Virus record (IMG/VR): IMGVR_UViG_3300028887_000082
Strand: one strand, 5' to 3'
DNA length: 64,000 nucleotides
Source of the DNA: a virus
Lineage: Duplodnaviria; Heunggongvirae; Uroviricota; Caudoviricetes
The translations under genes were made by a program, and so were the position numbers. Positions within the stretch are counted from its first letter, which is position 1. Each line of letters begins with the position of its first letter. The notes under the pieces are model-generated. The model saw only the letters and a program-made list of their open reading frames with translations, searched no databases and was not told the origin of the DNA. This document shows positions 866 through 15,069 of this stretch, in pieces.

Positions 866-873
866 CAACAAAT

Positions 874-948: not shown

Positions 949-967
949 CAAAAAATATTCAAAAATA

Positions 968-1204: not shown

Positions 1205-1207
1205 TAT

Positions 1208-1462: not shown

Positions 1463-1837
1463 TTTATGGTGGGGTTATCAAACTTAACCACCCGCATCCT
1501 TGAAGAGAATGTGTTGCCGAGCCGTGTCAAGTTTATCTTGTATCCGGAGGAGTGAAACTTCCAAGTTGACAGGTTATTGCACTCGCCTGTCAATTATTAC
1601 TGAACCCACCAGTAAGACTGTTAAGCAGTATATCAGTATGGTACATGGGAGTTGTGCATGAGCTGGCTGAAGAGTAGTTTCCGGATATGGTGTTGAAACC
1701 CGGGGAAAATGAAAAGTAAGTCAATAGCAATAGGGAACCGGTGGAGTTACTGTGACTTTGTAATTTTGTCCATTACAGAACCGGGGAAATAATGGAACAC
1801 CAATGTGGCTAAAATGGTAGGGATTCACAAAAATCAG

Positions 1838-1898
1838 TGAAGGTGGCCACACACCTGGACAATCACTGATTACGAAAATTATTTTTTATAAATATATA
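1838..1898 (+). terminator. stem-loop (ATCAGTGA...TCACTGAT) followed by T-rich run, upstream of tRNA-Glu
   Basis: 8-bp stem with a structured 21-nt loop, then TACGAAAATTATTTTTTAT. Confidence 0.4.
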
Positions 1899-1904
1899 AC
1901 AGTT

Positions 1905-1976
1905 GGCGCCCTCGTCTATCGGTTAGGACACGAGATTTTCATTCTCGGAAGAGGGGTTCGATTCCCCTGGGCGCTA
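1905..1976 (+). tRNA. tRNA-Glu (anticodon TTC)
   Basis: Acceptor GGCGCCC/GGGCGCT (G-U at 1:72); D-stem GTCT/GGAC; anticodon stem CGAGA/TCTCG with loop TTTTCAT; T-arm AGGGG-TTCGATT-CCCCT. Confidence 0.8.
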
Positions 1977-2037
1977 CTAATCAACCGGAAGGTTGTTTAC
2001 TATCCAGTCAATAATTCATGAATAAACCTGGGTAGAG

Positions 2038-2111
2038 GTCTGATAGCTCAGATGGTGAGAGTACCACACTGATACTGTGGAGGTCACAAGTTCAAGTCTT
2101 GTTCAGACTAC
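2038..2111 (+). tRNA. tRNA-Ile (anticodon GAT), second copy with imperfect acceptor stem (possible pseudogene)
   Basis: D-arm TAGCTCAGATGGTGAGAGT; anticodon stem CCACA/TGTGG with loop CTGATAC; T-arm ACAAG-TTCAAGT-CTTGT; acceptor GTCCTGA/TCAGACT has two mismatches. Confidence 0.5.
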
Positions 2112-2225
2112 GAAACATATCGCGGGGGAGTGAAACGGATAAGAACATCCCACAAGTTTGTTCAAAGATCATTACAGGCTCATAACCTGTAGATACTGGC
2201 TTCGACTGCCAGACCCGCAACAAAG

Positions 2226-2379
2226 ACCTTTATGAAGCAAGTGGAATTCGGTATTTCAACCTATGCAAGTTATCAGAGTCAGTGTACAATGAATCTGAAG
2301 AACAGTATAAAAGTCAATACTGATAAGTCTTCTGTGGAAATTCAAGCCCAGTTGTCCTGGTTCGAGCCCAGGTAAAGGT
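2226..2379 (+). ncRNA. elongated tRNA-like gene (154 nt) with ~75-nt internal insertion
   Basis: Perfect 7-bp acceptor ACCTTTA...TAAAGGT flanks a canonical T-arm CCTGG-TTCGAGC-CCAGG; TG follows the 5' acceptor strand as in neighbouring tRNAs; internal part not foldable by eye. Confidence 0.4.
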
Positions 2380-2555
2380 CCATATACAACAAAAAACAAC
2401 AAACATGGCAACAGTTAAAAACACATCATTCTCAAGAAGAGAAGTCAAGCATAAGAAACGCCCTGGAATCATTTCCAAGTGTAAGTCTTCAAAGAACAAG
2501 ACATCAAAACACTATGTGAAACCATACAGAGGTCAGGGCAGACCATAAAAACCTT

Positions 2556-2637
2556 CGGGGTGTAACCGGTAGTTGGTTTCCGACCAGTTTTGGGAACTGG
2601 GCCGCAAGGCGCGCAGGTTCGAGTCCTGTTACCCCGA
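2556..2637 (+). tRNA. tRNA-like, probable tRNA-Pro (anticodon TGG) with unusually long variable arm
   Basis: Acceptor CGGGGTG/TACCCCG; anticodon stem CCAGT/ACTGG with loop TTTGGGA (G37); 12-nt variable hairpin GCCGCAAGGCGC; T-arm GCAGG-TTCGAGT-CCTGT; D-stem only 3 bp. Confidence 0.5.
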
Positions 2638-2640
2638 CAA

Positions 2641-2822
2641 CACCTGGTGGACAAATGGTAAAGTCGCCCTATTGGGTAGGGAGGTGTGTAATAGAAGTTT
2701 TCCGGCAGTGAGGAGTAATGGAGTCGCGATCCACCGAAGGCACGGGAACGAGAATAAGCACAGGCCTGGATGTATTCGCGATGCTGAAGGGTGAATGGGG
2801 GTTCAATTCCCCTTCGAGGTGA
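2641..2822 (+). ncRNA. elongated tRNA-like gene (182 nt) with ~110-nt insertion after the anticodon region
   Basis: 5' part CACCTGG-TG-GAC-AATGGTAAA-GTC with stem-loop CCCT-ATTGGGT-AGGG (TGG anticodon-like); 3' part GGGGG-TTCAATT-CCCCT then CGAGGTG, which pairs 6/7 with the 5' acceptor; insert contains two copies of TCGCGAT. Confidence 0.4.
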
Positions 2823-3129
2823 CAAAGATTGTTGTGGTGTTGCAGAACTTTAAAAGGAACAACACAGGTGTAGAGGGAAACTTTAATGGGTAATTTTTTT
2901 TACCAGCTAACCTTCAGAGACCTCACCAAGGATGATGCTTCATCATGGAGGGCACTCCAAGATGACAAAAAGATAGTTACAGTGAGAGTCTTATTGAGAA
3001 CTGTTCGACCCAGGAGGAGTGATGTTTTAGAGCATGTTTGACTGTACGGGGATAAACGGTGGCGACCGGTGAGTTTTTCTGGGCACTTCTCAGAACAAAA
3101 ACAAAGAAAATTAACAAAACAGTCTTTAA

Positions 3130-3204
3130 GGGTGTTTAGCGCAGCTGGTTCAGAGCATCTCGTTTACACCGAGAAGGTCGGGGGTTCGAATCCCTCATCA
3201 CCCA
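3130..3204 (+). tRNA. tRNA-Val (anticodon TAC)
   Basis: Acceptor GGGTGTT/ATCACCC (one mismatch); D-arm TAGCGCAGCTGGTTCAGAGC; anticodon stem TCTCG/CGAGA with loop TTTACAC; T-arm GGGGG-TTCGAAT-CCCTC. Confidence 0.75.
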
Positions 3205-3342
3205 CAAAGAGATACTTGAAGAAGCTACGGGTGTAAGATACTAGTAAAGATTACACATAGGGGCCTACCATATTGTAGTTTATGTGTTCTAAAACATCAA
3301 GTAACAACATAGAGGACTTCGAATTAATCTATGGCTCTTAAT

Positions 3343-3414
3343 GCCGATGTAGCTCAGTGGCAGAGCAGGGGTTTTGTAAACCTCAGGTCGAGATCTCGGT
3401 ATTCTCCATCGGCT
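3343..3414 (+). tRNA. tRNA-Thr (anticodon TGT) with non-canonical T-loop
   Basis: Acceptor GCCGATG/CATCGGC perfect; D-arm TAGCTCAGTGGCAGAGC; anticodon stem GGGGT/ACCTC with loop TTTGTAA; T-arm GAGAT-CTCGGTA-TTCTC (4 bp, unusual loop). Confidence 0.65.
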
Positions 3415-3472
3415 CAAAATTATTGAACTTGAACTTTCATAAATACTTTATAAGGATTATAAAAGTTCAACT

Positions 3473-4066
3473 ATGACAAACTGGGAAGATAGAAAAGATA
3501 CCCTGGTAGATTTGATACAGGTTCAGAAATTACCATATGAACAGATTGGTAGAATGTTCAATTGTTCAGGTAATAACATCAAGAAAGTTGCAAAAAAACT
3601 TGGTATTGAATTAGTCCAGAAAAGAAAGATAAATGAAAGTGAAACTTTCAATAAAGGAAAAGGTAATAAGGGTATCTGTTTAAACTGTGGATGTGAATAT
3701 AACATTTACAGGTCTTCAAAAGGAAAGTTCTGCTCAAACAAATGTCAGGGAGAGTATGAATATAAAGAGTTCATTGAAAAATGGAAAAAGGGTGAAGAAT
3801 CTGGATTGACAGGAGAATATGGAATTTCTCGTCACATAAGGAGATACCTTTTTAATAAGTACAAATGTAGTTGTCAAATTTGTGGATGGAGTGAAGTAAA
3901 TCCATTTACTGGTAATGTTCCTTTGGAAATTCATCATATAGATGGCAATTACGTAAATAATAAAGAGGAAAATTTACAACTCCTTTGTCCAAATCATCAC
4001 TCACTGACTGAAACCTTTAAGAACCATAATAAAAATGGTAGAAAAGGTAGAAGGAAGTACAATTGA
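3473..4066 (+). CDS. HNH homing-type endonuclease (free-standing, inside tRNA array)
   Basis: C-terminal HNH motif ...EIHHIDGNYVNNKEENLQLLCPNHH; Cys-rich Zn-binding stretches CLNCGCEY...CSNKCQ and CQICGW; N-terminal HTH-like segment. Confidence 0.85.
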   Translation: MTNWEDRKDTLVDLIQVQKLPYEQIGRMFNCSGNNIKKVAKKLGIELVQKRKINESETFNKGKGNKGICLNCGCEYNIYRSSKGKFCSNKCQGEYEYKEFIEKWKKGEESGLTGEYGISRHIRRYLFNKYKCSCQICGWSEVNPFTGNVPLEIHHIDGNYVNNKEENLQLLCPNHHSLTETFKNHNKNGRKGRRKYN

Positions 4067-4072
4067 TAATTT

Positions 4073-4227
4073 GCCCCAGTGGCTCAATGGTAGAGCAACG
4101 CACTTGTATAGATGGCGAAATTCCATTTTAAAAACTATGACTACATCAAAAGGCTCATAGGAGTGAGGGTTCGATTCCCTTATGTAGTCCAATGCGTAGG
4201 TTGCTGGTTCGATTCCGGCCTGGGGCT
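4073..4227 (+). tRNA. interrupted tRNA gene: 5' half + ~90-nt insertion in anticodon loop + 3' half; insertion contains a nested T-arm/acceptor minihelix
   Basis: Outer acceptor GCCCCAG...CTGGGGC perfect 7 bp; D-arm TGGCTCAATGGTAGAGC; anticodon stem ACGCA (4098-4102) pairs with TGCGT (4193-4197); T-arm GCTGG-TTCGATT-CCGGC; insert 4103-4192 begins CTTGTAT (TGT-like); nested ACTACAT...GAGGG-TTCGATT-CCCTT-ATGTAGT-CCA at 4140-4191. Confidence 0.6.
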
Positions 4228-4285
4228 CAAGAAAAAGGATTTTGGCCTGTTAGTTAAAATCCATATAAAATAAAAAGTCAAATTT

Positions 4286-4906
4286 ATGTCAAAATTAATG
4301 AAACCAGAAGAGAGGGATCAGCAGATCAAGGATTTGATGATTACCATTAGAAGGAACACACAGGGTTCCAAATGTATTGAGATCTTTGAAAATCTTTTGA
4401 ATGAGGTTGAGGACAAAGAGTTTGTTGATACTGTTATAGCAGACACTCACAAATTCATCTCTGAGTTCTCAAGACTATGTAAGGATGTGGACAATATGAA
4501 GAATCTGGATTATATCTCCAGAATCCTCACACATGAGTTCATACTTCCCCACAAGTATTTCCGTAAGTCACAGAATATGGCGAAGGTATACTTGCTGATG
4601 TATGACAGACTTGTGAAGATATATTCACATCCTGTATATGATGTTGAGAAAGGTATCATCCTTTCCAATGTCAACTTCCTGGGTACAATTCACCACAAGG
4701 AAGACCTCACTGCAAATGATGTGATTGCAGTGTTCAAGTATTTCGGTGACCTTTCAGGACTTTCCGTTGACCAGGTAAAGGAAAAGAAGGAAGAAGCCAG
4801 GATGGTCATCTTACTCTACAATTATCTGCCTGCCATAGTGAAGGCACTTATTCAGACCAAGAGGAGAAGCTTGAATCTTGACAAGAACTCCAAGAAGTTT
4901 GAATAA
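4286..4906 (+). CDS. hypothetical protein (206 aa)
   Basis: Long + strand ORF between the tRNA block and tRNA-Ala. Confidence 0.6.
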   Translation: MSKLMKPEERDQQIKDLMITIRRNTQGSKCIEIFENLLNEVEDKEFVDTVIADTHKFISEFSRLCKDVDNMKNLDYISRILTHEFILPHKYFRKSQNMAKVYLLMYDRLVKIYSHPVYDVEKGIILSNVNFLGTIHHKEDLTANDVIAVFKYFGDLSGLSVDQVKEKKEEARMVILLYNYLPAIVKALIQTKRRSLNLDKNSKKFE

Positions 4907-4934
4907 ATAACAGAACTAACAGGCTGGAATCTTT

Positions 4935-5001
4935 GGGGGATTAGCTCAGCTGACTAGAGCACCTGATTTGCACTCAGGAGGTCATGGGTTTGAATCCCAT
5001 A
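4935..5001 (+). tRNA. tRNA-Ala (anticodon TGC), CCA encoded
   Basis: Acceptor GGGGGAT/ATCCTCC (G-U at 4:69); D-arm TAGCTCAGCTGACTAGAGC; anticodon stem CCTGA/TCAGG with loop TTTGCAC; T-arm ATGGG-TTTGAAT-CCCAT; ends ACCA. Confidence 0.8.
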
Positions 5002-5043
5002 TCCTCCACCAAAAAAGGACAATTATTTGCTGGGATACTGTGA

Positions 5044-6132
5044 GTGTCCCTTTTTTATTCAATGAAAAGAATATTTATATTCATTGTATTTTTATTCCTT
5101 GGTATGACATCACTGCAATCGCAGAATGTCGTATCATCTACTGTTGAGTTTTTATTCAACACAGATGAGTTTGTACAGAATGAGAAATATGACAATTTCA
5201 TAAACACAATTGTACCTTATATCAACAGCAACAAGGATAATATTGAGAGTATCCTGTTGGTGGGATCTGCATCCCCAGAAGGAAACAAGGAATGGAATGA
5301 CTACCTTGCTGTCACCAGGGCCGAAAAGGTACACTCATATTTTATGGACAGTATTCCAAGACAGAAGGTCAATGTCATCAATGACTATGACCTATTCCTG
5401 GAAAAGACAGGTTATGATGAGAAGAACTGGAAAAGGTTGAGGGCAACTTATATTGAAATCCAACTCAAAAAAGCACCTGAAACCATAACCCTGTTTGACA
5501 CCATATATATAAAGGAGATGGATACAATCTACCAGTGCTGTGGCACTGATACTGTATATATCAAACAGGAACCGGAAAGGATACCTCTTCTTGCAGTAAA
5601 GACAAATCTCCTTTCTGATGTTCTCATCACCCCCAGTATTCAAGCTGAACTCTACACACATCTCTGGGGACTCTCACTTGAATTTGACTACACATTCCCC
5701 TGGTATCACAATGATGATGTATATTGGTATTACCAGATCCTCAATGGTACTGTTGGAATAAGGAAGTACTTGAACAATGAGTACTATGGTCATTACTTTG
5801 GAATATATGGAAACACTTTCACATATGACATCTGTTTTGATGCAGATAATGGATACCAGGGTGAGGGTAATGGAATCAGTATAGGTTATGGATATGTGTT
5901 CAGGAGTAAGAAACATCCCAAACTGAAGTTTGAACCTTATGTCAGGTTGGGTTATCTGTATTCAAGATTTGACACATATCATGCCTCTAATCCCTGGGAT
6001 GGAAAGTATTACTACAACTGGCATAAGAAGGCCAGTGAATTTACTCCCAGGAGACTTGAACTTAATTATTTCGGACCTACTGCAATAGGTTTCAATATAA
6101 CATACGACTTGATATGGTTAAGAAAGTATTAG
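5044..6132 (+). CDS. secreted outer-membrane beta-barrel-like protein (DUF3575-like, OmpA-like segment)
   Basis: Signal peptide MKRIFIFIVFLFLGMTSLQSQ; segment AVKTNLLSDVLITPSIQAE resembles the DUF3575 core found beside Bacteroidales fimbrillin genes; GSASPEGNKEWNDYLAVTRAEKV is OmpA-C-like; aromatic C-terminus. Confidence 0.5.
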   Translation: MSLFYSMKRIFIFIVFLFLGMTSLQSQNVVSSTVEFLFNTDEFVQNEKYDNFINTIVPYINSNKDNIESILLVGSASPEGNKEWNDYLAVTRAEKVHSYFMDSIPRQKVNVINDYDLFLEKTGYDEKNWKRLRATYIEIQLKKAPETITLFDTIYIKEMDTIYQCCGTDTVYIKQEPERIPLLAVKTNLLSDVLITPSIQAELYTHLWGLSLEFDYTFPWYHNDDVYWYYQILNGTVGIRKYLNNEYYGHYFGIYGNTFTYDICFDADNGYQGEGNGISIGYGYVFRSKKHPKLKFEPYVRLGYLYSRFDTYHASNPWDGKYYYNWHKKASEFTPRRLELNYFGPTAIGFNITYDLIWLRKY

Positions 6133-7178
6133 TTTTTATTGTTTCACTGTTGTTAGTTTTTTCTGCTTGTGATAAGAAACCTCTATATCTTCAGGGTGAT
6201 GCAGCAGTCACCGTTAATGTACAGACTCAGGTATCAATAGAAGCATATTGGAATACAAACATTCAAAGTACATTAAGATATGACTGGGACACCACTTTGT
6301 ATGGACCAATAGGTTATTCAAAGGTGGATAATGTTGACCTTGTGATATTCAACAACAAAAAGATAATAGAAAGGAAGACATTAAACACAGGAAAACGTCA
6401 ACTGATAGATATTGAATTAGGTAATACATATGACTTTTTGATTTTCAATAAAACAGAAAACACCGAGGATTTTTATATAGACAACAAGTTTTTAATAAGT
6501 ACAACCACTCCTGGTACAAAGTCTGTTGTTGAAGATGTATATTATGATTTGACAAACCAACCTGGTGAGATATTTTGTGTTTATCAAAAGAATGTATTTT
6601 TGTCAGATGATTTGTCTCAATATAAAGAGGTATATGATCATGACAAGTTAATATATGTGTATGACATCAATACTGAATTAAAACCGGTATCATACATCTA
6701 CCTTATACAGTTTATTATTGTAAAGGATGACAGTTTGGATATTGATGTGAAAGGTATTCCGGAATACAGAATAACCGGTGTGAGTTCCTCAAAGAATCTT
6801 TTCACCAACACTCCTGTATATACCGGAAAGAAAGAAATCAGGTCAACTGACATCAAACCCCCACAGGTGGTAGAGGATAGTTTGATTTTTGCGTCAAAAT
6901 TCACTATATTGAACTTGGGTAGTGATGATGAACAAAGTTCATGGGAGACTCCTGATAATTATATATACAACTGTTTGATAAATATTGAGACTGAGAAATC
7001 AGGAAGTTTTAATGGAATTGTCAATATTACAGACCAACTTAAAAAACAACCACAAGGAGGAATAATAACAATAAGGATTAACAGTTCAACATTGAGAAGG
7101 AAGGATCAGGACAGTGGTGGAATTAATGTTGATGTTGAACCCTGGCAAGAGGAAGAGGTTCAAGAAATAGAAATATAA
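6114..7178 (+). CDS. lipoprotein (354 aa), pilus-accessory-like
   Basis: Lipobox MVKKVLVFIVSLLLVFSAC-DKK; beta-rich N/T/D-rich composition; sits between the DUF3575-like and fimbrillin-like genes. Confidence 0.55.
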   Translation: MVKKVLVFIVSLLLVFSACDKKPLYLQGDAAVTVNVQTQVSIEAYWNTNIQSTLRYDWDTTLYGPIGYSKVDNVDLVIFNNKKIIERKTLNTGKRQLIDIELGNTYDFLIFNKTENTEDFYIDNKFLISTTTPGTKSVVEDVYYDLTNQPGEIFCVYQKNVFLSDDLSQYKEVYDHDKLIYVYDINTELKPVSYIYLIQFIIVKDDSLDIDVKGIPEYRITGVSSSKNLFTNTPVYTGKKEIRSTDIKPPQVVEDSLIFASKFTILNLGSDDEQSSWETPDNYIYNCLINIETEKSGSFNGIVNITDQLKKQPQGGIITIRINSSTLRRKDQDSGGINVDVEPWQEEEVQEIEI

Positions 7179-7220
7179 TACATAAATAATACATAAATAA
7201 TAATAAAAAACTTAATTGAA

Positions 7221-8405
7221 ATGAAAAAGATTTTATTCACATTATTAACCATATTAATGGTAATCGTATCATGTGCAAAAATAGATATTGTACCTGATAC
7301 ATATAATTCTCGTAATGAGAATGTGGAGATTGTTTTCGGTGCCCATGCAGGCAAGGGTTTGATGACAAGAGCAGTCATTAATGGTGATACTTTACCAGAT
7401 GGATCAGAGTTTGGTGTTTATTCATACTATGCAGCAGGAACCAATCATTTGTTGATTGACAATGGTCACTATGCAGTAAACAAGGATACAGCCAGGGCTA
7501 CTGGTGGTGAAAAGTATTATTGGCCAAAGTCAGATAACAATAATGTCACAAAGGATAGTATTGACTTCTTGGCAATTTATCCATATAGTACAACTGATTA
7601 TTCTCGTTCAGGAAACACTGTTACTATTACACTTAATGCATCAACAACAGATAGTACTTCTACAAAGGATGTTCTTTATGCAATAGCTGATAATCAGTAT
7701 CATCAGACAGTTGGAACTTATAACAATACTACACCAAATAAGTATTATGTTCCATTGACATTTAAGCATGCATTGACATTGGTTGAGTTCCAGGGTAAAC
7801 ATGCTGGAGCAACAAATAACATTGATACTATAACTGTTACAGAGATTGCTTTCTTGAATAGTGATGGTACTGCATATGCTATTTACACTGGTGGTTCAAT
7901 ATCATTTGATATATCTAAAATAACTGCAACCACAAAACCTGATACAACTTTTACAGGTGGTACAACAAACAATACTTTAAACTTTGCTAATAATTGTGGT
8001 CTTACATCATCAAAATACACAACAATATCAAAGGCAATAATGGTTCCTCAGGCTGTACCTAATAAGGTTCGCATAACTTATAATATAACCATTAAGAATA
8101 CTAATGGTGAAAAAGTGGAGTTCACTGGTCGTCAGGTAGTAAAAGAAATTAATACCGGTAGTGATATGACAAATAATACTCCTAGAAATTATGTATCTAA
8201 CTGGTATTCTGGTAAGCATTATGTTTACAGGTATTATATAACTGCTGAAGCTATTGAGTTTACTGTAACAGTTGATGACTGGGATCTTCCTGATGGTTGG
8301 CAGATTTGGGATCATGATGTAGCATCATATGTTGACCGTTTTTTCGAGAAGGCTTCAACAATCATGGGGAACTGTATAGAGGTGCAGAACCACATAATGG
8401 CGTAA
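7221..8405 (+). CDS. fimbrillin-like (type V pilus Mfa/FimA-like) lipoprotein; reading continues in -1 frame to 8980 across a T6 tract
   Basis: Lipobox MKKILFTLLTILMVIVSC-AK; candidate Arg maturation site LMTR|A near residue 50; T/S/N-rich beta-rich body; the -1 frame is open from 8336 to 8980 with no start codon before 8669. Confidence 0.5.
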   Translation: MKKILFTLLTILMVIVSCAKIDIVPDTYNSRNENVEIVFGAHAGKGLMTRAVINGDTLPDGSEFGVYSYYAAGTNHLLIDNGHYAVNKDTARATGGEKYYWPKSDNNNVTKDSIDFLAIYPYSTTDYSRSGNTVTITLNASTTDSTSTKDVLYAIADNQYHQTVGTYNNTTPNKYYVPLTFKHALTLVEFQGKHAGATNNIDTITVTEIAFLNSDGTAYAIYTGGSISFDISKITATTKPDTTFTGGTTNNTLNFANNCGLTSSKYTTISKAIMVPQAVPNKVRITYNITIKNTNGEKVEFTGRQVVKEINTGSDMTNNTPRNYVSNWYSGKHYVYRYYITAEAIEFTVTVDDWDLPDGWQIWDHDVASYVDRFFEKASTIMGNCIEVQNHIMA

Positions 8406-8668
8406 AATTTTCAAATAGCGTAAAGGGCCTTGATTTTAGTAGAGGAGATTACATTGAAGCCAAAATAGATTTACGCAATTTAAATAGAGCAAAGCAGAAC
8501 ATCATCTCTATTGGAGAAGATATAGCCAACTGGACCCCAAGTGGTAGTGGAGAAAAATATAATCTTCATATTTATTATCCCAATGATGTTAACGATTTAC
8601 GAATAAGATTTTCTGCATTAAGCAGTAATAGAATTAAGATTGGTAATACCACTTATAATCGTAGAACA

Positions 8669-8980
8669 ATGGGAATTGTTGATTCAGATATATTTTATTT
8701 TGATGAGGATACTAATTATGAAGTTACTATAAAATTTGACAAAGATGGATTTTATGTCAATGACCACTTGATAACCAGAGATGATTTTGAATCTGTTGAA
8801 CCAAGTAAAATACCTGAGTGGCCAACAAATCCAAGTGGTACTGGAACAGATGTTTGGACATATCCAGATTATTTCATGTTACATTTCCAAAATAAAGTAA
8901 GTGTTAGTTTTGGAAGCATGGAAGGTAGTACACGAAGTTACGCTTATTATGAATACATAAAATATCATCATGTACTATAA
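8669..8980 (+). CDS. C-terminal segment of the frameshifted fimbrillin-like gene (listed as separate 103-aa ORF)
   Basis: In-frame, stop-free extension from 8336 upstream of this ATG; probably not independently translated. Confidence 0.35.
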   Translation: MGIVDSDIFYFDEDTNYEVTIKFDKDGFYVNDHLITRDDFESVEPSKIPEWPTNPSGTGTDVWTYPDYFMLHFQNKVSVSFGSMEGSTRSYAYYEYIKYHHVL

Positions 8981-8981
8981 A

Positions 8982-9008
8982 AGAGAGGATAAAACATCCT
9001 CTCTTTTG
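8982..9008 (+). terminator. rho-independent terminator (AGAGAGGAT-AAAAC-ATCCTCTCT-TTTG)
   Basis: Perfect 9-bp stem with T-run directly after the stop at 8980. Confidence 0.7.
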
Positions 9009-9031
9009 TACATAAATATTTTATAAAAACT

Positions 9032-9268
9032 TTGTTATATTTAATATACAAAATAAGTTATATGAGTATGAATGATTTGAAATACTTTGGTAAGGTGGTT
9101 GCCTTGTTTCTTGCAGGATTCATTGCCATCATCACAGCATCAGGTGTTTGGAATGGTGTAGCAGAAGGATGTGTTGATTCCTTCTATGGTTGGGTTGCTG
9201 GTATCAACTTCATCATCCAGGGATTTGGTATCTATTCACTTTATAAGAAATTATTCCCAAAAGAATAA
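9032..9268 (+). CDS. small membrane protein (78 aa)
   Basis: Two predicted TM helices (VVALFLAGFIAIITASGVW; AGINFIIQGFGIYSLY). Confidence 0.45.
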   Translation: MLYLIYKISYMSMNDLKYFGKVVALFLAGFIAIITASGVWNGVAEGCVDSFYGWVAGINFIIQGFGIYSLYKKLFPKE

Positions 9269-9465
9269 TACAATATGCTCTCTGGTGAGTTTATGGGTGT
9301 CTTGATTAACTTCATATATGACCCATAAATAAAAGTGGTATAAGTGCAGTATATTCCAGGAGTACATACTGCAACGGTTCATAGTTCAGCCGGGAAACGT
9401 ACGAAACTATGCGTGGGATCCATAACAGACGGAGAAGCATACGGTCACTTGAAAGTCTGTTTTTC

Positions 9466-9553
9466 GGAGGGTTGCCTGAGTGGACGAAAGGGGCTGCCTG
9501 CTAAGCAGTTGAACCCTTTATGGGTTCCAGAGGTTCGAATCCTCTACCCTCCG
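9466..9553 (+). tRNA. tRNA-Ser (anticodon GCT), type II
   Basis: Acceptor GGAGGGT/ACCCTCC perfect; Ser-type D-arm CCTGAGTGGACGAAAGG; anticodon stem GCTGC/GCAGT with loop CTGCTAA; long variable arm; T-arm AGAGG-TTCGAAT-CCTCT; ORF 9344..9649 over it is spurious. Confidence 0.85.
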
Positions 9554-9671
9554 CACATAAATACTATGAATATACAATGTTTTTGGTCCAGAGGATTCCG
9601 GAACCTTTTGAGTGTTAATAAAAGACACGAATGGATTAGAGACAGTTAAATACAAAATAATTTAATAAAGT

Positions 9672-10508
9672 ATGTCTAATTTTATCGTTAAAGACTCATT
9701 GGCAAAGATTGCCATCCAAAAAAATCTAATCAAGGAATACAAGACTTCTGAATCTGACAGAACAGTGTACCTCAATGATGGTACTGAATTCCAAATCTAT
9801 CTCAAAAATCCTTATCAGACACATCTGGGTATTAAGATTTCTGTGAACAACAAGTCCATAGGTAATATGCTTGTGTTGAAACCAGGTCAGAGTTTCTGGC
9901 TTGACAGGTTTGTAAATGAGAACAGTAAGTTCTTATTCTCTACATACCAGGTTGAAAACACAGGTGAGATGAAGTATGCAACCAGTAACAATGGTAAGGT
10001 AAAGATTGAGTTCTACCATGAAAGGGAAAACACTTTCAGTTTCTGTCGAGGTGTCTCAACAGTTTATGATGGTTATAATGGTTGGAGTAGTGGTACCAAA
10101 TTATACAACAATGACAATATAACCTGTTATTACAGTGCTTCAACCATCACAGGTTCAGCAGCAACACCTGATACAGTTCTTACAGCAAGTTCTGCTTGCT
10201 TGGATTCAAGTTCTCGTTCAAGAAGTCTCAAAAAGGAGATTGACAAGAGTGCAAACAAGAAAGTTGATCATGACCTTACAATGGAGACAGGTAGGGTAGA
10301 AAAAGGTGGAAGATCAGACCAGGAATTTACAACCTGTGACATTAATTTTGATTACTATCCATTCCAGACAGAGAACATCCTTATCCTTCCAAATTCAAGG
10401 AAGCAGATAAGGGTTGAGGATACCAGAAGAAGATATTGCAGTCAGTGCGGAAAGAAGGTAAGTCCAAAGGATAAGTTCTGTTCCAACTGTGGTGCGAAAC
10501 TCTACTAA
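9672..10508 (+). CDS. hypothetical protein with C-terminal zinc ribbon (278 aa)
   Basis: C-terminus CSQCGKKVSPKDKFCSNCGAKLY; followed by a terminator. Confidence 0.6.
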   Translation: MSNFIVKDSLAKIAIQKNLIKEYKTSESDRTVYLNDGTEFQIYLKNPYQTHLGIKISVNNKSIGNMLVLKPGQSFWLDRFVNENSKFLFSTYQVENTGEMKYATSNNGKVKIEFYHERENTFSFCRGVSTVYDGYNGWSSGTKLYNNDNITCYYSASTITGSAATPDTVLTASSACLDSSSRSRSLKKEIDKSANKKVDHDLTMETGRVEKGGRSDQEFTTCDINFDYYPFQTENILILPNSRKQIRVEDTRRRYCSQCGKKVSPKDKFCSNCGAKLY

Positions 10509-10513
10509 ACAAA

Positions 10514-10541
10514 ATCCCGGATGAAAGTCCGGGATTTTTCG
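10514..10541 (+). terminator. rho-independent terminator (ATCCCGGA-TGAAAG-TCCGGGAT-TTTTT)
   Basis: Perfect 8-bp GC-rich stem plus T5. Confidence 0.8.
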
Positions 10542-10551
10542 TAAATATAGT

Positions 10552-10932
10552 ATGAAAAGATTTACAAACAGTGAGATTACATTTGGTGAGGAGATCCAAA
10601 TCAATGACTGGCAGGTCAGACTTCCTGTCATTGTTGATGGTAAGGAGATGTCTGTTGATGATGTGAACTTCATCATAGAACCTCATTATGTGTCAGGAGA
10701 GACATTGTATCAACCTCATATATTCATTGATGAAAGACTCCGGGACCAAGGTCTGGGATATGGAATCTACAAGGCATTCATACATGAGTTCGGGAACATA
10801 TACAGTTCCCACTGGTGTAGGACAAACAACAAGGAAATTATATCCATCTTCAACAAACTTGCACTGGAAGATGACATAGTGGTGGAGAAAAACAACAAAT
10901 ATTATTTCGCATATCTAAAGGGTTCAAGATAA
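10552..10932 (+). CDS. hypothetical protein (126 aa)
   Basis: + strand ORF bounded by terminators at 10514-10541 and 10921-10946. Confidence 0.55.
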   Translation: MKRFTNSEITFGEEIQINDWQVRLPVIVDGKEMSVDDVNFIIEPHYVSGETLYQPHIFIDERLRDQGLGYGIYKAFIHEFGNIYSSHWCRTNNKEIISIFNKLALEDDIVVEKNNKYYFAYLKGSR

Positions 10933-10946
10933 TTTGAACCTTTTTT
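10921..10946 (+). terminator. rho-independent terminator (GGTTCAA-GATAAT-TTGAACC-TTTTTT)
   Basis: Perfect 7-bp stem plus T6. Confidence 0.75.
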
Positions 10947-10978
10947 GTTATATTTAATCTGGATTATTTAATTGAATT

Positions 10979-12109
10979 ATGCAGATTATAGACAATGTAC
11001 AACTTGACTTCAGTGATGTTCTCATTAAACCCAGGAGGTCAAGTATTGATTCGAGAAGTAAGGTAGATATTACCAGGGAGTACAAATTCAAATGGTGTCC
11101 ATATAAAATCACAGGTACTGGTATTATGCAGGCCAATATGGGAACCATAGGTAACTTTAAAGTGAGTGAGAAACTGTTGGAGAATGGTATGTTTGCTTGC
11201 CTTCACAAATATCATGATACTGACAAACTGATTGATTTCTACAAGAAACTCATCCACAAAGGTGACGGAAGTATGAGAAGATGTCTCCTTGCAATAGGAT
11301 TGAGAGATAATGGTATTGAGAAACTGAGGGAAATAAACAAGGCAACCGGTGAACAGATTGGTGTGAAGTTTGATGTTCCCAATGGATATATTCCCCAGGT
11401 AAAGGAAAGAGTCATTGAACTCAGGAAGGAGTTTCCAGATATGTTCATTATGGTTGGTAATGTGGTTACTGGTGATATCACAGAAGACCTGATTCTGTCA
11501 GGTGCAGACTGTGTTGCAGTAGGTATCGGTAATGGTGCCCAGTGTCTCACAAGAAGACAGACAGGTTGCGGAAGACCACAGTTCTCCGCTGTCGTAGAGT
11601 GTGCAGATGCAGCTCACCAGGTCGGAGGTATGGTTTGTTCTGATGGTGGTATCACCTGTCCTGGAGATTTGGGTAAGGCATTTGGTGCCGGTGCGGATTT
11701 CATTATGATAGGAAGTCTGTTTGCAGGAACTGATGAGGCAGATGGTGAGACTGTTGAGAAGTATGTCTTCAATGGTGAGTATGACAAAATATTATATAAT
11801 CCTGGTTATGTGTTTGATCCCCATCTTGATAAGAAACAGTTCAAACAGTTCTATGGTATGAGTTCAACTCTGGCCCAGGAAAAGTTTGGTAATGGTAAAC
11901 CCAGTTACCGTGCGAGTGAAGGTCGTGTAACTCTGATGCCTTATACAGGATCTGTTTGTGATGTGATTGAGGAACTCCTTGGAGGATTGAGGTCAACAAT
12001 GACTTATATAGGTGCATGGAAACTCAAGAATATTCCTAAACAGTGTGTGTTCTATAAGGTTCACAACCAACTGAACCAGACATATGAGAGATTTACAGTA
12101 GGTAAATAA
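10979..12109 (+). CDS. guaC: GMP reductase (IMPDH/GMPR family)
   Basis: N-terminus ...LDFSDVLIKPRRSSIDSRSKVDITREYKFKW... parallels E. coli GuaC ([31 protein letters not shown]); catalytic-loop motif GIGNGAQCLTRRQTGCGRPQFSAV; ~375 aa. Confidence 0.8.
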   Translation: MQIIDNVQLDFSDVLIKPRRSSIDSRSKVDITREYKFKWCPYKITGTGIMQANMGTIGNFKVSEKLLENGMFACLHKYHDTDKLIDFYKKLIHKGDGSMRRCLLAIGLRDNGIEKLREINKATGEQIGVKFDVPNGYIPQVKERVIELRKEFPDMFIMVGNVVTGDITEDLILSGADCVAVGIGNGAQCLTRRQTGCGRPQFSAVVECADAAHQVGGMVCSDGGITCPGDLGKAFGAGADFIMIGSLFAGTDEADGETVEKYVFNGEYDKILYNPGYVFDPHLDKKQFKQFYGMSSTLAQEKFGNGKPSYRASEGRVTLMPYTGSVCDVIEELLGGLRSTMTYIGAWKLKNIPKQCVFYKVHNQLNQTYERFTVGK

Positions 12110-12141
12110 AAAAATGAGAGGTTGTTGCCTCTCATTTTTAT
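12108..12141. terminator. bidirectional terminator (ATGAGAGG-TTGTTG-CCTCTCAT flanked by A-run and T-run)
   Basis: 8-bp perfect stem between the convergent guaC (+) and 12143..13075 (-) genes. Confidence 0.75.
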
Positions 12142-12142
12142 T

Positions 12143-13075
12143 TTAATCACCCCAGTATGTACCTGGTCTTGAACAATTAATTTCAACTTCATATTTATAT
12201 CCTTTTGAGAAGTTGTCATCATTGACATATCTCATAACAGTCTTGACATCATAAGGACTCATTGAGATGAACTCATCATATTTGACATAAGGTGCATCCA
12301 TATAATCATCAGATTTCAGTGCATCTGCAATTTCCTTTGGAACATCCTGGGCAGCAATCTCCTCATAGTTGTCAGGATTTGCCTCAACATCTGCCTTGAG
12401 TGCCTCAACCCTTGCATCATATGCTTCTTTCTTTGCCTTCTCTGCGGCAGTCCTGGCTTCCTCCTCTTCTTTTTCTATTCTTCTCTTTTCCTCCTCTTCC
12501 CTCTGCTTTTCAAGATATTTGTCATAAAGTTCATCCACTTCCTTTGTAACTTCCTCAAGACCTGATGTCCTGATTTTGATGAACATTTCCAGAAAACCTA
12601 TTGCATCATTGTTACTGCTGTAATATGATTTTGAATCTATTGTTGTGAAATAGAAGTATTTGTTTTCCTCATTCCAAAGAACATAATAGAGGTCACCCTT
12701 GTTTGTGAAGCATGATTTAACTTTCTCAATATTGGGTTCTGACAATACTTCAAGGAGTCTGTCCACTTTACCTTCTGTACCGAATGTATGTGTGTCCAAA
12801 TATGCCTTACTTGGTTTATGAGAAATATAATCTCTACCTCCACATTCATATAATTTATCACATATTTCATCAGGAACAACAGCCTTGATTTCCTTATATG
12901 CAAAATTATTAAAAGTTTTTACTTTGAAAGATATGTTTCCCAGGAACTCATAATCCTTTGAAAGGAAACCATTCTTCATCTGTGAATAACTCAGATTCCT
13001 GATGTTTCCATTTTCAAGTTCCTTTATTGAAATAGATTCCTTAAGAAAGTTGTAACTATTAAAGTTTGGTACCAT
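12143..13075 (-). CDS. hypothetical protein with E/K-rich coiled coil (310 aa); one of two minus-strand genes
   Basis: Long minus-strand ORF ending at the bidirectional terminator; contains ...EEEKRRIEKEEEEARTAAEKAKKEAYDARVEALKAD... Confidence 0.6.
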   Translation of the reverse strand: MVPNFNSYNFLKESISIKELENGNIRNLSYSQMKNGFLSKDYEFLGNISFKVKTFNNFAYKEIKAVVPDEICDKLYECGGRDYISHKPSKAYLDTHTFGTEGKVDRLLEVLSEPNIEKVKSCFTNKGDLYYVLWNEENKYFYFTTIDSKSYYSSNNDAIGFLEMFIKIRTSGLEEVTKEVDELYDKYLEKQREEEEKRRIEKEEEEARTAAEKAKKEAYDARVEALKADVEANPDNYEEIAAQDVPKEIADALKSDDYMDAPYVKYDEFISMSPYDVKTVMRYVNDDNFSKGYKYEVEINCSRPGTYWGD

Positions 13076-13105
13076 ATTTTTGTTATATTTATAATTGAAC
13101 TTATA

Positions 13106-14206
13106 ATGTATTTATGTATGAATAAGAATTTTTTAGAAGATTTTTTGAAGACTTACAGACCTTCAGGGTTTGAACAGGAAGGTGCTGAAGTGTTTGTCAG
13201 TAATGCCTGTGGACTCAAAGGAGTCAAGAAAGAGTTTATTGATAAGATGTGGAATGCATGTGTGAGTGTGGGTAGTGAAAAGGAGGATGCACTGAAAATC
13301 CTCATCTCCGGTCACTCTGATCAGAACTGTCTCATTGTGACTGAAATCACAAAGAATGGTTTCCTCAAGTATGCAACCCAGGGTGGATTCTCTCCAAGGA
13401 CAGTAATTGATTCAGACCTCTTTGTCATCACAAACAATGATGGTGTGAAGAAACTTATCCCCTGCTTCTGTAGTTATAAAGCAATACATATAGAAAAACC
13501 GGATGACAGAAAGAAATGTCCAGAACATAAGGATCTCTATCTTGATTTGGGATGTACATCCAGGGAACAGGTTGAGAAACTCGGTGTACATATAGGTGAC
13601 CTGGTTGTATTCAACAACAGTGGTCTGAATATGGACTTTGGTCCTGATGGCAACTACATTGTAGGTTCAGGTCTTGATGATGGTGTTGCTTGCGGAATCG
13701 TTTATGATGTCCTGAAGAAACTTGATGAGAATGAACTCAAGGAGATGAACATCAGGGTATATGGTGCATGCATCACATCAGAGGAAACTGGTGCCAGGGG
13801 TGTTGGTCCTGTAGTAAGAAAGGTTCAGCCACATATCTCCATAGATATTGATGTATGTCATGACTGCACCAAGGAGATTGGTGAGGATGAAGGCCGGATT
13901 GCAAAGATGGGTGATGGTGCTGTCCTGAACTATGGTCCTGACAAATACAGACCTCTCAATGAAGACTTGAGACAGATTGCAAAGGATTATGACATCAAGT
14001 TGCAACTCATTGCCGGCAAGGCAGGAGGTACAAACACCAACAACATCCAGATGATGTCAGACAACTGTGCCACAACCCTGTTGAGTATCCCTTGCAGATA
14101 TATGCACAGCGGAACACATGAGATGGTCAATAAGGATGACATTGATGGTTGTGGTCAGCTCATATACAAGTTCATCAACAAGGTAGATCCAAAGAAGTAT
14201 GTATAA
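13106..14206 (+). CDS. M42-family metallo-aminopeptidase-like protein
   Basis: KILISGHSDQNCLIVTEITKNGFLKYATQGGFSPRTV parallels the M42 motif around the metal-binding His-x-Asp; downstream GSGLDDGVACGIV and D/E/H ligand-like residues. Confidence 0.65.
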   Translation: MYLCMNKNFLEDFLKTYRPSGFEQEGAEVFVSNACGLKGVKKEFIDKMWNACVSVGSEKEDALKILISGHSDQNCLIVTEITKNGFLKYATQGGFSPRTVIDSDLFVITNNDGVKKLIPCFCSYKAIHIEKPDDRKKCPEHKDLYLDLGCTSREQVEKLGVHIGDLVVFNNSGLNMDFGPDGNYIVGSGLDDGVACGIVYDVLKKLDENELKEMNIRVYGACITSEETGARGVGPVVRKVQPHISIDIDVCHDCTKEIGEDEGRIAKMGDGAVLNYGPDKYRPLNEDLRQIAKDYDIKLQLIAGKAGGTNTNNIQMMSDNCATTLLSIPCRYMHSGTHEMVNKDDIDGCGQLIYKFINKVDPKKYV

Positions 14207-14678
14207 GTCTGAAATCACAGATGATATGCCTGAACTTGAGAAGTTTGTCAGGCAAGAGGCAGCTGCCTATGTCAATTCCACAATCTTCTTGAGTTGTATT
14301 TCAACCAGTCACAAGAACATTGACAGTGTTGTTGAGAAAGGTAAGGATGTTGTACCATATGTAATTAAACTATACAAGGAGAATGGTGAATACTCCAACC
14401 AGAATATGTACACACATTTCTTCCTGATTGTCATGCAGAGACTCTATGGTAACCCATTTGATGGATATGTAGGTATGAACTTTGCAGAGAGGTATTGGTT
14501 GAAGAGATATGAGCATGGCATGCTGGATGACTATGATGAGAATACAGACAAGAAAAAGGAAGAGAATTTCATACTTGACCTGTTCCAGTGTAAGTCTATG
14601 GAAGAACTGAAGGCATTTTTTAAACCTGATTCAGTAGCATCTTATGGAGGAGGAAACAAAAACATACAGGACTCCTAA
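14199..14678 (+). CDS. hypothetical protein (159 aa)
   Basis: + strand ORF overlapping its neighbours by a few nt, as in phage operons. Confidence 0.5.
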   Translation: MYKSEITDDMPELEKFVRQEAAAYVNSTIFLSCISTSHKNIDSVVEKGKDVVPYVIKLYKENGEYSNQNMYTHFFLIVMQRLYGNPFDGYVGMNFAERYWLKRYEHGMLDDYDENTDKKKEENFILDLFQCKSMEELKAFFKPDSVASYGGGNKNIQDS

Positions 14679-15069
14679 ATGGAGAGAGTATTACAGTATC
14701 ATCCTCTGGTGGATGAATGAAAAGTTCCATGACCAGAATAATCTGTCTGGTTATGATGCCACACCTGTACAAAAATCCATTGATGGTAATGAGGAATATT
14801 ACTCATTCTGGGTTGAGATAGGTAATCAGGTATATGAGAAAGGTCATGAAGATTATATGAAAGACAATCCTGAAGCTGGAAAATTCTATGAAATACTCAA
14901 TCCTATGAAGAAGGTTACACTGGATGACCTACAGGAACTCAATCTCAAACTGAAGGAAGCGGGTGCTGATGAGGTGTATATTCAGACAAAAGAGATGTAT
15001 GTGCATGGTCAAGCAGCTTTGTACAATTACATAAGTCCGAATATCCTACAGTTACTCATCAAAAAATAA
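14644..15069 (+). CDS. hypothetical protein (141 aa; true start may be an internal Met)
   Basis: + strand ORF; 35-nt overlap with the upstream gene suggests a later start. Confidence 0.45.
   Translation: MEEETKTYRTPKWREYYSIILWWMNEKFHDQNNLSGYDATPVQKSIDGNEEYYSFWVEIGNQVYEKGHEDYMKDNPEAGKFYEILNPMKKVTLDDLQELNLKLKEAGADEVYIQTKEMYVHGQAALYNYISPNILQLLIKK

What the first reader, a model, noticed from the sequence alone, without database searches (positions are those of the whole stretch)
8336..8980. Fimbrillin-like lipoprotein gene continues in the -1 frame across a T6 tract
ORF 7221..8405 stops at 8405. The -1 frame is open from 8336 through 8980, about 215 codons, yet contains no ATG/GTG/TTG until 8669. 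A stop-free stretch of that length in AT-rich DNA is very unlikely by chance. The overlap contains CGTTTTTTCG (8337-8346), which reads T_TTT_TTC in the zero frame, a permissible -1 slippery heptamer. It is also a homopolymer prone to indels. So the 394-aa lipoprotein and the downstream 215 aa are probably one ~600-aa gene. It is expressed either by -1 programmed frameshifting (giving short and long isoforms), by slipped-strand phase variation, or it is broken by a mutation or sequencing indel.
Basis: seen in the sequence. Interest (0 to 1): 0.6.

Follow-up and report, generated by a model that had tools for sequence, protein, structure and literature searches.

The report
Conserved -1 frameshift extends phage pilin
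A pilus-subunit gene carried by a giant rumen phage seems to use a conserved ribosome slip on TTTTTTC, helped by a downstream RNA stem, to add a sugar-binding-type domain to some copies, a new case of a known recoding trick.

Summary
ORF 7221..8405 (394 aa) overlaps a -1 frame that is open over 8336..8980 and has no start codon before 8669. A T6 run lies at 8339-8344.

It is not an assembly error, a pseudogene or a separate gene. Thirteen distinct homologous loci, diverged to saturation at synonymous sites, all keep T6 and all need a -1 shift there. An independent assembly is 100% identical to the window over 4595 nt. Three relatives carry the same two parts fused in frame. They have no T run and no stem, and they align without gaps to the conceptual -1 fusions.

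A 9-bp stem starts 5 nt after T_TTT_TTC (8351-8359 pairing with 8453-8461). It is kept in all 13 loci through compensatory changes. Synonymous conservation for the whole gene peaks at the slip site.

The zero-frame product models as a Bacteroidales type V pilin. The added 211 aa model as a concanavalin-A-like lectin/glucanase sandwich.

Best explanation: programmed -1 ribosomal frameshifting gives a 394-aa pilin and a 586-aa lectin-bearing pilin (confidence about 0.7). Transcriptional slippage and phase variation are weaker rivals.

Unexpectedly, the window looks like a Lak-like megaphage, so the pilus cassette is phage-borne. No protein or RNA data exist. I rate it a new member of a known kind.

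The parts
5044..6132 (+). First gene of the cassette: DUF3575 outer-membrane beta-barrel-type protein with an OmpA-like N-terminal part
   Evidence: Pfam PF12099 DUF3575 at 1.3e-17. The same gene precedes the pilin in L002, L016 and L018.
6114..7178 (+). 354-aa lipoprotein (signal peptide ending ...FSAC) of unknown family. A counterpart of 343-360 aa sits directly upstream of the pilin gene in the homologous loci.
   Evidence: Translation. No Pfam or NCBIfam hit. Synteny.
7221..8405 (+). Zero-frame ORF giving the short isoform: a 394-aa type V (Mfa-like) pilin precursor with lipobox Cys18 and a putative Arg50-Ala51 maturation site
   Evidence: AlphaFold model with two beta-sandwich domains. 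Foldseek matches Bacteroidales fimbrial proteins down to E 3e-13, and also Mfa3, Mfa2 and Mfa4. Homologs carry PF13149.
8333..8335 (+). TGA stop in the -1 frame, two codons before the slip site. It is the upstream limit of the -1 open frame.
   Evidence: The same GTTGA context is present in 12 of the 13 frameshift-type loci; in L015 the -1 frame is open further upstream.
8339..8345 (+). Slippery heptamer T_TTT_TTC (zero-frame codons CGT TTT TTC)
   Evidence: T6 is invariant in 13 of 13 distinct loci. The codons CAT/CGT, TTT and TTC are identical in all ten loci compared, against a gene-wide codon identity of 0.54.
8346..8350 (+). 5-nt spacer (GAGAA) between the heptamer and the stem
   Evidence: The spacer sequence varies between loci but its length is constant in 12 of 13.
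8351..8359 (+). 5' arm of the putative stimulatory stem (GGCTTCAAC)
   Evidence: RNAalifold, pair counts and single-sequence folds.
8403..8405 (+). Zero-frame stop (TAA), inside the loop closed by the stem. It ends the short isoform 19 codons after the slip site.
8453..8461 (+). 3' arm of the stem (ATTGAAGCC). In this window it forms 8 Watson-Crick pairs plus a terminal C.A mismatch.
8345..8980 (+). -1 frame coding part of the long isoform (211 codons plus TAA). C8345 is read twice. Long isoform = 375 + 211 = 586 aa.
   Evidence: Median dN/dS is 0.235 with dS mostly above 1.
8411..8977 (+). Concanavalin-A-like lectin/glucanase-fold beta-sandwich domain (about residues 26-214 of the -1 frame segment)
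8982..9004 (+). Hairpin AGAGAGGAT-aaaac-ATCCTCTCT followed by TTTT, directly after the -1 frame stop. It is a possible end of the transcription unit.
   Evidence: Read from the sequence. It did not pass the terminator scan's T-tail rule.

Best explanation
This is a programmed -1 ribosomal frameshift site inside a phage-borne type V (Mfa-like) pilin gene. Ribosomes translate 7221 onward in the zero frame and reach T_TTT_TTC (8339-8345). The mRNA entry channel then meets a stem whose 5' arm starts 5 nt downstream (8351-8359) and pairs with 8453-8461. A fraction of ribosomes slip back one base, with tRNA-Phe re-pairing from UUU and UUC to UUU and UUU, and read on in the -1 frame to 8980. They make a 586-aa pilin carrying a linker of about 35 aa and a ConA-like lectin/glucanase-fold domain. 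The remaining ribosomes stop at 8403-8405 and make the 394-aa pilin alone.

Shown here: the sequence anatomy; its conservation in 13 loci; the covariation in the stem; the absence of both signals from in-frame relatives; the predicted folds of both parts.

Inferred: that the shift is ribosomal; its efficiency; that both isoforms are made; that the long form is the adhesive (probably tip) subunit and the short form a plain subunit, so that slip efficiency would fix their ratio.
For: (1) Thirteen distinct loci have T6 at the homologous position and need exactly -1: window, L001, L002, L004, L005, L008, L009, L011, L012, L013, L014, L015, L018. L016, an independent assembly, is 100% identical to the window over 4595 nt.
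(2) These loci are saturated at synonymous sites (dS mostly above 1), and the -1 frame domain is under purifying selection (median dN/dS 0.235).
(3) Codon identity among same-residue pairs is 0.54 over the gene. The highest 7-codon windows of the whole 689-column alignment lie at -3..+7 around the slip site (0.80-0.93).
(4) In-frame fused homologs exist: P0012/L017, and L006 and L007, which resemble P0013 and P0017. They read ERYYAKGL, HSFFKGYY and EHYYYMGY at the junction, and they have no homopolymer and no complementary arms.
(5) RNAalifold finds a stem 5 nt after the heptamer. On 13 sequences, 94% of cells are paired against 14-46% when the partner is slid. Three pairs change on both sides. 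One pair shows AU, CG, GC, GU and UA and is never unpaired. The covariation score is 0.209 against 0.086 in shuffles, reached by 0 of 500 shuffles.
(6) The stem is part of the MFE fold in 7 of 8 loci folded singly, and of the centroid in the eighth.
(7) In L015 the T run sits in another register (GTT TTT TAA) and the stem lies 3 nt closer to it. The distance from the A-site codon to the stem therefore stays at 4-5 nt. This is my reading of the geometry.
(8) In E. coli, U_UU.C is the second-best tetramer, H_HH.U_UU.Y heptamers are among the most efficient, and IS elements use U_UU.U_UU.C (PMC4066793).
Against: There is no protein, ribosome-profiling or transcript data, so neither isoform has been seen. 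Folding z-scores are modest (-0.2 to -2.5). The stem closes a large loop of about 70-95 nt whose interior is not conserved, which is unusual for a stimulator. Both stem arms are coding, and the 13 loci are related, so the shuffle control overstates significance; the number of independent compensatory events is small (about 4 lineages). T6 conserved independently of reading register (L015) would also fit a mechanism that acts on the nucleic acid, such as slippage by RNA polymerase. -1 frameshifting has not been characterised in Bacteroidota or their phages, as far as my literature searches show.
Confidence: 0.7

Rival explanations
1. Transcriptional slippage: RNA polymerase adds one U on the T6/A6 tract, so a fraction of mRNAs carry U7 and encode the fused protein in a single frame.
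For: The T run is conserved as a run even where its reading register differs (L015: GTT TTT TAA). The predicted protein product is the same as for a -1 ribosomal shift.
Against: Six residues is short for efficient slippage. Known bacterial cases mostly use runs of about 7-9 or more (my knowledge of the field; reviewed in PMC5009743, which I did not read in detail). A stem downstream of the run, conserved by covariation and kept at a constant distance from the A-site codon, has no role in polymerase slippage. The C after the run, which completes U_UUU_UUC, is invariant in 12 of 13 loci.
Confidence: 0.12
2. Slipped-strand phase variation: the gene switches between T6 (short pilin, lectin off) and T7 (fused, lectin on) at the DNA level.
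For: A homopolymer lies exactly at the frame junction of a surface-adhesin gene, which is a classic setting for contingency loci.
Against: All 13 distinct loci and the duplicate assemblies carry T6. Fourteen protein clusters of the short form were found, several seen on 3-10 contigs, and no fused form of about 590 aa was found among close relatives. Six bases is short for frequent slippage. Phase variation does not explain the conserved stem.
Confidence: 0.07
3. Two separate genes: the downstream ORF is translated on its own, from a non-canonical or internal start or by re-initiation after the zero-frame stop, as gene callers annotate it (123-186 aa).
For: Gene callers call it this way in every metagenome.
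Against: In the window there is no ATG/GTG/TTG for 111 codons. Residue conservation in the -1 frame begins at the T run (FFRxGF...KFSNSV..LDF..GDYIEAKIDL), upstream of all called starts. The in-frame homologs are colinear across the junction. The called starts are Leu codons inside a conserved strand of the domain model.
Confidence: 0.05
4. A broken gene or an artefact: a recent frameshift mutation or a homopolymer sequencing error in an originally in-frame gene.
For: In-frame versions of the same architecture exist (P0012, P0013, P0017).
Against: The same T6 and the same frame relation recur in 13 loci at 37-84% protein identity, taken from independent samples and assemblers. The downstream frame has dN/dS of about 0.24. 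The in-frame versions have a different, non-homopolymeric sequence at the site.
Confidence: 0.02

Closest known systems
Phage major-tail-protein extensions made by programmed frameshifting (SPP1 major tail protein; TpeX of lactococcal 936-group phages)
   Same: A subunit of a polymeric fibre is made in two forms from one gene. The frameshifted form carries an extra C-terminal adhesin or carbohydrate-binding module, so only a fraction of subunits are decorated (PMC6669499). This is the closest analogue in logic, and it is also phage-encoded.
   Different: Those proteins are virion tail-tube proteins. This one is a lipoprotein pilin of the Bacteroidales type V pilus fold, in a cassette with a DUF3575 outer-membrane protein, so it is presumably exported to the surface of the infected cell. 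I did not compare the signals of those phages with this one.
-1 frameshift sites of IS3/IS1-family insertion sequences and E. coli dnaX
   Same: An X_XXY_YYZ heptamer followed a few nucleotides later by a stem or pseudoknot. U_UU.U_UU.C is one of the heptamers used by IS elements and is efficient in E. coli (PMC4066793). Two products share an N-terminus.
   Different: No Shine-Dalgarno-like enhancer is visible. The stimulator is a 9-bp stem closing a loop of about 70-95 nt, not a compact hairpin or pseudoknot. In dnaX the shifted product is the shorter one (my knowledge), whereas here the shift adds a 211-aa domain.
In-frame pilin-lectin fusions of the same family (P0012, P0013, P0017), and Bacteroides type V pilus adhesins with C-terminal adhesive domains
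   Same: The same architecture: lipoprotein signal, Mfa_like_1 pilin module, linker, the same C-terminal domain. [quoted passage not shown]
   Different: Those are single ORFs with no T run and no stem, so they can make only the long form.
Modular pilins that carry a lectin module (Streptococcus sanguinis PilC, PDB 7oa7/7oa8)
   Different: PilC belongs to a type IV pilus, is unrelated in sequence, and involves no recoding.

Membership tests
Programmed -1 ribosomal frameshift site | Slippery X_XXY_YYZ heptamer in the correct zero-frame register at the point where homology changes frame | tested here: met
   T_TTT_TTC at 8339-8345. The junction is placed there by alignment with in-frame homologs. 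Twelve of 13 loci share this register; L015 has a U_UUU tetramer followed by a stop.
Programmed -1 ribosomal frameshift site | The site is conserved beyond what the encoded protein requires | tested here: met
   The slip-site codons are invariant while gene-wide codon identity is 0.54. The slip region holds the top synonymous-conservation windows of the gene. dS is mostly above 1 between loci.
Programmed -1 ribosomal frameshift site | A stimulatory RNA structure 5-9 nt downstream, supported by covariation | tested here: met
   A 9-bp stem after a 5-nt spacer. 94% of cells paired, 3 pairs with compensatory changes, 0 of 500 shuffles reach the covariation score, and slid controls give 14-46% paired. 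It is absent from in-frame homologs. Caveats: large loop, few independent events.
Programmed -1 ribosomal frameshift site | Both the zero-frame and the transframe products are made in vivo at a set ratio | not testable with these tools
   No proteomic, ribosome-profiling or reporter data were available.
Type V pilin (FimA/Mfa superfamily, Pfam PF13149 Mfa_like_1) | Match to the family profile | tested here: inconclusive
   The window protein gives no Pfam hit at E <= 0.1. Its homologs at 32-62% identity carry PF13149, as do the genes at the same position in L004, L011, L012, L014 and L018 and the in-frame P0012.
Type V pilin (FimA/Mfa superfamily, Pfam PF13149 Mfa_like_1) | Lipoprotein signal peptide, two beta-sandwich domains, and an Arg/Lys site after the N-terminal anchor strand | tested here: met
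   The signal peptide ends in ...VSC (Cys18), and ...GLMTR50/A51 follows the first strand. A [KR]-[A/S/T/G] site is at the same place in homologs. The model has two beta-sandwich domains and a disordered loop at 43-54. Foldseek E is 3e-13 to Bacteroides fimbrial proteins, with Mfa3, Mfa2 and Mfa4 also matched. Cleavage itself was not tested.
Type V pilin (FimA/Mfa superfamily, Pfam PF13149 Mfa_like_1) | A free C-terminal donor strand (stalk and anchor pilins), or none (tip pilins), and polymerisation by strand exchange (PMC13655056) | tested here: inconclusive
   Residues 356-394 are predicted disordered. Stand-alone paralogs end just after the ..VWDY motif, about 10 residues before the slip site. 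Whether either isoform donates a strand cannot be decided from sequence.
Concanavalin-A-like lectin/glucanase fold domain | Jelly-roll beta-sandwich fold resembling lectins, GH16 and PL7 | tested here: met
Concanavalin-A-like lectin/glucanase fold domain | Carbohydrate binding or catalysis | not testable with these tools
   Context gives only hints: the domain is repeated 12 times ahead of a GH2 beta-galactosidase in P0014. There is no Pfam or PDB sequence match.
Phase-variable contingency locus (homopolymer slipped-strand mispairing) | Tract-length polymorphism between and within strains, giving ON and OFF alleles | tested here: not met
   T6 in 13 of 13 loci and in the duplicate assemblies. 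No fused allele in the protein searches. Read-level heterogeneity was not testable.
Transcriptional slippage site | A long A/T homopolymer (usually about 7-9 nt or more) and heterogeneous transcripts | tested here: inconclusive
   The run is only 6 nt, shorter than typical sites (my knowledge). Transcript data were not available.

The most novel reading that the evidence does not exclude
A family of Lak-like megaphages that infect rumen Bacteroidales carries its own minimal type V pilus cassette: a DUF3575 barrel, a lipoprotein and a pilin. It uses -1 frameshifting so that one gene supplies both a plain pilin and a lectin-bearing, probably tip, adhesin. Slip efficiency would then set the subunit ratio of a phage-encoded pilus displayed on the infected cell. 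This would be the first programmed frameshift in a pilus system and the first phage-encoded type V pilus.
Probability: 0.3. Interest if true: 0.8.

Novelty: new member of a known kind. Interest (0 to 1): 0.66.

Why it matters
Programmed -1 frameshifting outside mobile-element transposases, dnaX and phage tail genes is rare. I found no report of it in a pilin gene or in Bacteroidota systems; the text searches returned nothing relevant.

This case comes with a natural control set. Thirteen frameshift-type loci carry the heptamer and a covarying stem, and three in-frame relatives lack both. That makes it directly testable with reporters.

It would also matter for annotation. Every metagenome gene caller splits this gene and invents an ORF of about 165 aa with a false start.

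Biologically, it suggests that giant rumen phages equip their hosts with an adhesin whose lectin-bearing fraction is set at the level of translation. It also defines an uncharacterised lectin-like domain family that occurs in giant multi-repeat proteins.

Tried and rejected
- Pfam and NCBIfam on both parts of the window gene gave nothing useful. PHROGs gave nothing for either part.
- No relative was found in three collections: GTDB species representatives, IMG/VR, and GenBank phages by tblastn with either part. The family is so far visible only in rumen and gut metagenome assemblies.
- A query spanning the junction found only a one-sided 121-aa hit. This is weak negative evidence against fused T7 alleles, because only 5 candidates were collected.
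- Stop-codon reassignment in the window was considered, because there are few long ORFs. Allowing TAG as sense adds only about 14% to ORF length and merges nothing large, so the standard code is adequate here.
- Phage tRNAs were checked for tRNA-Phe or a suppressor that could bear on the slip. None of the 12 is either.
- No Shine-Dalgarno-like stimulator is visible upstream of the heptamer (read).
- The conserved zero-frame TAA in ..AGC GTA A.. first looked like selection for the stop position. In the window and its closest relatives an earlier TAA ends the frame, and in L015 the stop follows the T run directly. The length of the zero-frame tail (0-22 aa) is therefore not conserved. I do not claim a function for the tail.
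Full report
**Observation**

ORF 7221..8405 encodes a 394-aa protein and ends at TAA 8403-8405. The -1 frame has a TGA at 8333-8335 and is then open to the TAA at 8978-8980, which is 214 sense codons. The ORF listing finds no ATG/GTG/TTG in that frame before 8669. The run T6 is at 8339-8344. In the zero frame the codons are CGT TTT TTC, so T_TTT_TTC spans 8339-8345. Joining the frames needs +1 base (T7) or a -1 shift; T5 would not do it. The fusion is 375 + 211 = 586 aa.

**The split is conserved, not an error**

- The 214-aa segment finds ten protein clusters, all short (123-186 aa). Their alignment shows that homology continues upstream of their called starts.
- I fetched the DNA around these clusters and around others. 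It gave 13 distinct loci in which a pilin gene of about 375-400 aa is followed by this segment in the -1 frame, each with T6 at the junction. They are the window, L001, L002, L004, L005, L008, L009, L011, L012, L013, L014, L015 and L018.
- L016, an independent assembly of another run, is identical to the window over 4595 nt.
- The N-terminal protein finds 14 clusters of 374-416 aa that all end ...[HR]FFxKA.... This is the zero-frame reading of the same junction. No fused form of about 590 aa was found.
- Between loci the C-terminal domain has a median dN/dS of 0.235, and dS is mostly above 1. The downstream frame is therefore a functioning coding sequence, and the loci are old relative to one another.

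**In-frame relatives locate the shift**

A profile search of 1.8 billion representatives found P0012 (511 aa), P0013 (521 aa) and P0017 (641 aa). In each, an Mfa_like_1 pilin and the same C-terminal domain form one ORF. Conceptual -1 fusions of nine loci align to these three without a gap across the junction..AYVEHFF|RQGF.. against ..AYAERYY|AKGL....AYVNHSF|FKGY.. and ..AWAEHYY|YMGY... I read the DNA of three in-frame loci: L017, which encodes P0012, and L006 and L007, which encode relatives of P0013 and P0017. It has no homopolymer at the site (TATTATGCAAAG, TTTCTTTAAG, TATTACTATATG) and no complementary arms.

**Signals**

- Codon identity among same-residue pairs is 0.54 over the whole gene. 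The best 7-codon windows of the 689-column alignment are those at -3..+7 around the slip site (0.80-0.93). There, CAT/CGT, TTT, TTC, GGC and TTC are invariant in all ten loci compared.
- RNAalifold predicts a stem whose 5' arm begins 5 nt after the heptamer (GGCTTCAAC, 8351-8359). It pairs with (A/G)TTGAAGCC about 85-118 nt from the start of the T run (8453-8461 in the window).
- The stem occurs in five sequence versions:
  - GGCTTCAAC/GTTGAAGCC;
  - GGCTTCCA/TGGAAGCC (L004, L008);
  - GGCTTCTAT/ATAGAAGCC (L014);
  - AGCTTCGAT/ATCGAAGCT (L015);
  - GGCTTTGAT/ATTGAAGCC, with two G.U pairs (L018).
- On the 13-sequence alignment, 94% of cells pair, against 14-46% when the partner is slid by 1-3 columns. 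Three pairs carry double changes. One pair shows five pair types and is never unpaired. The covariation score of 0.209 is reached by 0 of 500 shuffles.
- The stem appears in the MFE fold of 7 of 8 loci folded alone, and in the centroid of the eighth.
- In L015 the zero frame reads GTT TTT TAA, so the T run is in another register and a stop follows it. The stem there sits 3 nt closer to the run. The distance from the A-site codon to the stem is therefore 4 nt, against 5 nt elsewhere. This is my reading.
- U_UU.C and U_UU.U are the second and third best tetramers in E. coli. H_HH.U_UU.Y heptamers are among the most efficient there, and IS elements use U_UU.U_UU.C (PMC4066793).

**What the two parts are**

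- The zero-frame protein has a lipoprotein signal (Cys18) and ..MTR50/A51.. after its first strand. A [KR]-[A/S/T/G] site is at the same place in homologs.
- Its model has two beta-sandwich domains, a disordered loop at 43-54 and a disordered tail at 356-394. It matches Bacteroides fimbrial proteins and P. gingivalis Mfa3, Mfa2 and Mfa4, with E down to 3e-13.
- Stand-alone paralogous pilins end right after the ..VWDY motif, about ten residues before the slip site. The pilin module is therefore complete before the shift.
- The same domain is repeated up to 12 times in giant proteins. One of them ends in a GH2 beta-galactosidase. Carbohydrate binding is therefore a reasonable inference, but it is untested.

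**Function (inferred)**

In type V pili, stalk and anchor pilins need a free C-terminal donor strand and tip pilins lack one (PMC13655056). A pilin whose C-terminus is a lectin domain fits a distal or tip adhesin. The short form could be a plain subunit. Frameshift efficiency would then set their ratio. The closest analogues in logic are phage major tail proteins that gain adhesin or carbohydrate-binding extensions by programmed frameshifting (PMC6669499). The zero-frame tail varies from 0 to 22 aa, so I assign it no role.

**Context**

The window is probably part of a huge phage.

- It has 12 tRNA genes and few long ORFs.
- It encodes a Dda-like helicase, an RNA ligase, a tRNA-His guanylyltransferase, an RlaP nucleotidyltransferase, a sigma factor, a DNA methyltransferase and an HNH endonuclease.
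- The guanylyltransferase is 56.8% identical to that of Prevotella phage Lak-B2.
- Homologous loci share the neighbourhood.
- The published Lak genomes lack the pilin.

**Rivals**

- Transcriptional slippage (about 0.12) gives the same protein. It does not explain the stem or the conserved spacing, and T6 is short for it.
- Phase variation (about 0.07) is contradicted by the uniform T6.
- Independent translation of the downstream ORF (about 0.05) is contradicted by the lack of start codons and by conservation that begins at the T run.
- A broken gene or an artefact (about 0.02) is contradicted by all the comparative data.
- Against the favoured model: no expression data exist; the loop is large and its interior is not conserved; folding z-scores are modest; the compensatory changes come from few lineages.

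**Verdict**

This is a well-supported new instance of programmed -1 ribosomal frameshifting, with a new gene family and a new setting. It is not a new kind of mechanism.

Noticed in passing
window 1..64000 (tRNAs at 13..5011 and 9466..9554; 15698..17197; 33898..34575; 44286..45605; 46584..47429; 59675..60514): The window looks like part of a Lak-like megaphage, not a bacterial chromosome. It has 12 tRNA genes, a Dda-like helicase, an RNA ligase, an RlaP nucleotidyltransferase, a tRNA-His guanylyltransferase (56.8% identical to that of Prevotella phage Lak-B2), a sigma factor, and almost all genes on the + strand.
   Followed up: partly
L015 2900..3160: This distant frameshift-type homolog has in-frame TGA at three conserved Trp positions (VDG*TVD**QI*DHD against VDDWDLPDGWQIWDHD), so its genome probably reads TGA as Trp. 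There the zero frame stops right after the T run (GTT TTT TAA), and the stem is 10-11 bp.
   Followed up: partly
L012 1776..1830: The zero-frame tail is cut by a TAG. That TAG aligns with Gln in the tails of P0122 and P0123 (..STMQA*KKVGIMA against ..STMQAQNMVGIMA). This would fit TAG=Gln recoding, as reported for Lak phages. In the window itself, allowing TAG as sense changes little.
   Followed up: no
window 4935..5050 and 8982..9554: The three-gene pilus cassette is bracketed by tRNA-Ala (4935..5011) plus a terminator-like hairpin (5032..5050) on one side, and by a hairpin (8982..9004) plus tRNA-Ser (9466..9554) on the other. It looks like an insertion into the phage tRNA array.
   Followed up: no
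proteins P0014, P0016, P0019, P0021-P0025: The C-terminal domain defines an unannotated family with no Pfam or PDB sequence match. It occurs as 5-12 tandem copies in proteins of 1700-2400 aa. P0014 carries a complete GH2 beta-galactosidase after the repeats.
   Followed up: partly
window 8360..8392: Relative to most homologs, the window and L013 carry a 33-nt in-frame insertion between the two stem arms. L009, L012 and L018 carry shorter insertions of 21-24 nt at the same place. The insertion lengthens the linker and the loop but leaves the arms intact.
   Followed up: no
window 8412..8423 and the homologous position in all loci: The Val codon GTA followed by a codon that starts with A is invariant in the 10 loci compared, although the next residue varies (K/T/S/N). 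This keeps a TAA in the zero frame. It is the second region of raised synonymous conservation (0.78-0.82), and I have not explained it.
   Followed up: partly
window 6114..6132: The 354-aa lipoprotein gene overlaps the end of the DUF3575 gene by 19 nt. The same overlap is seen in L016 and L018, which suggests translational coupling within the cassette.
   Followed up: no
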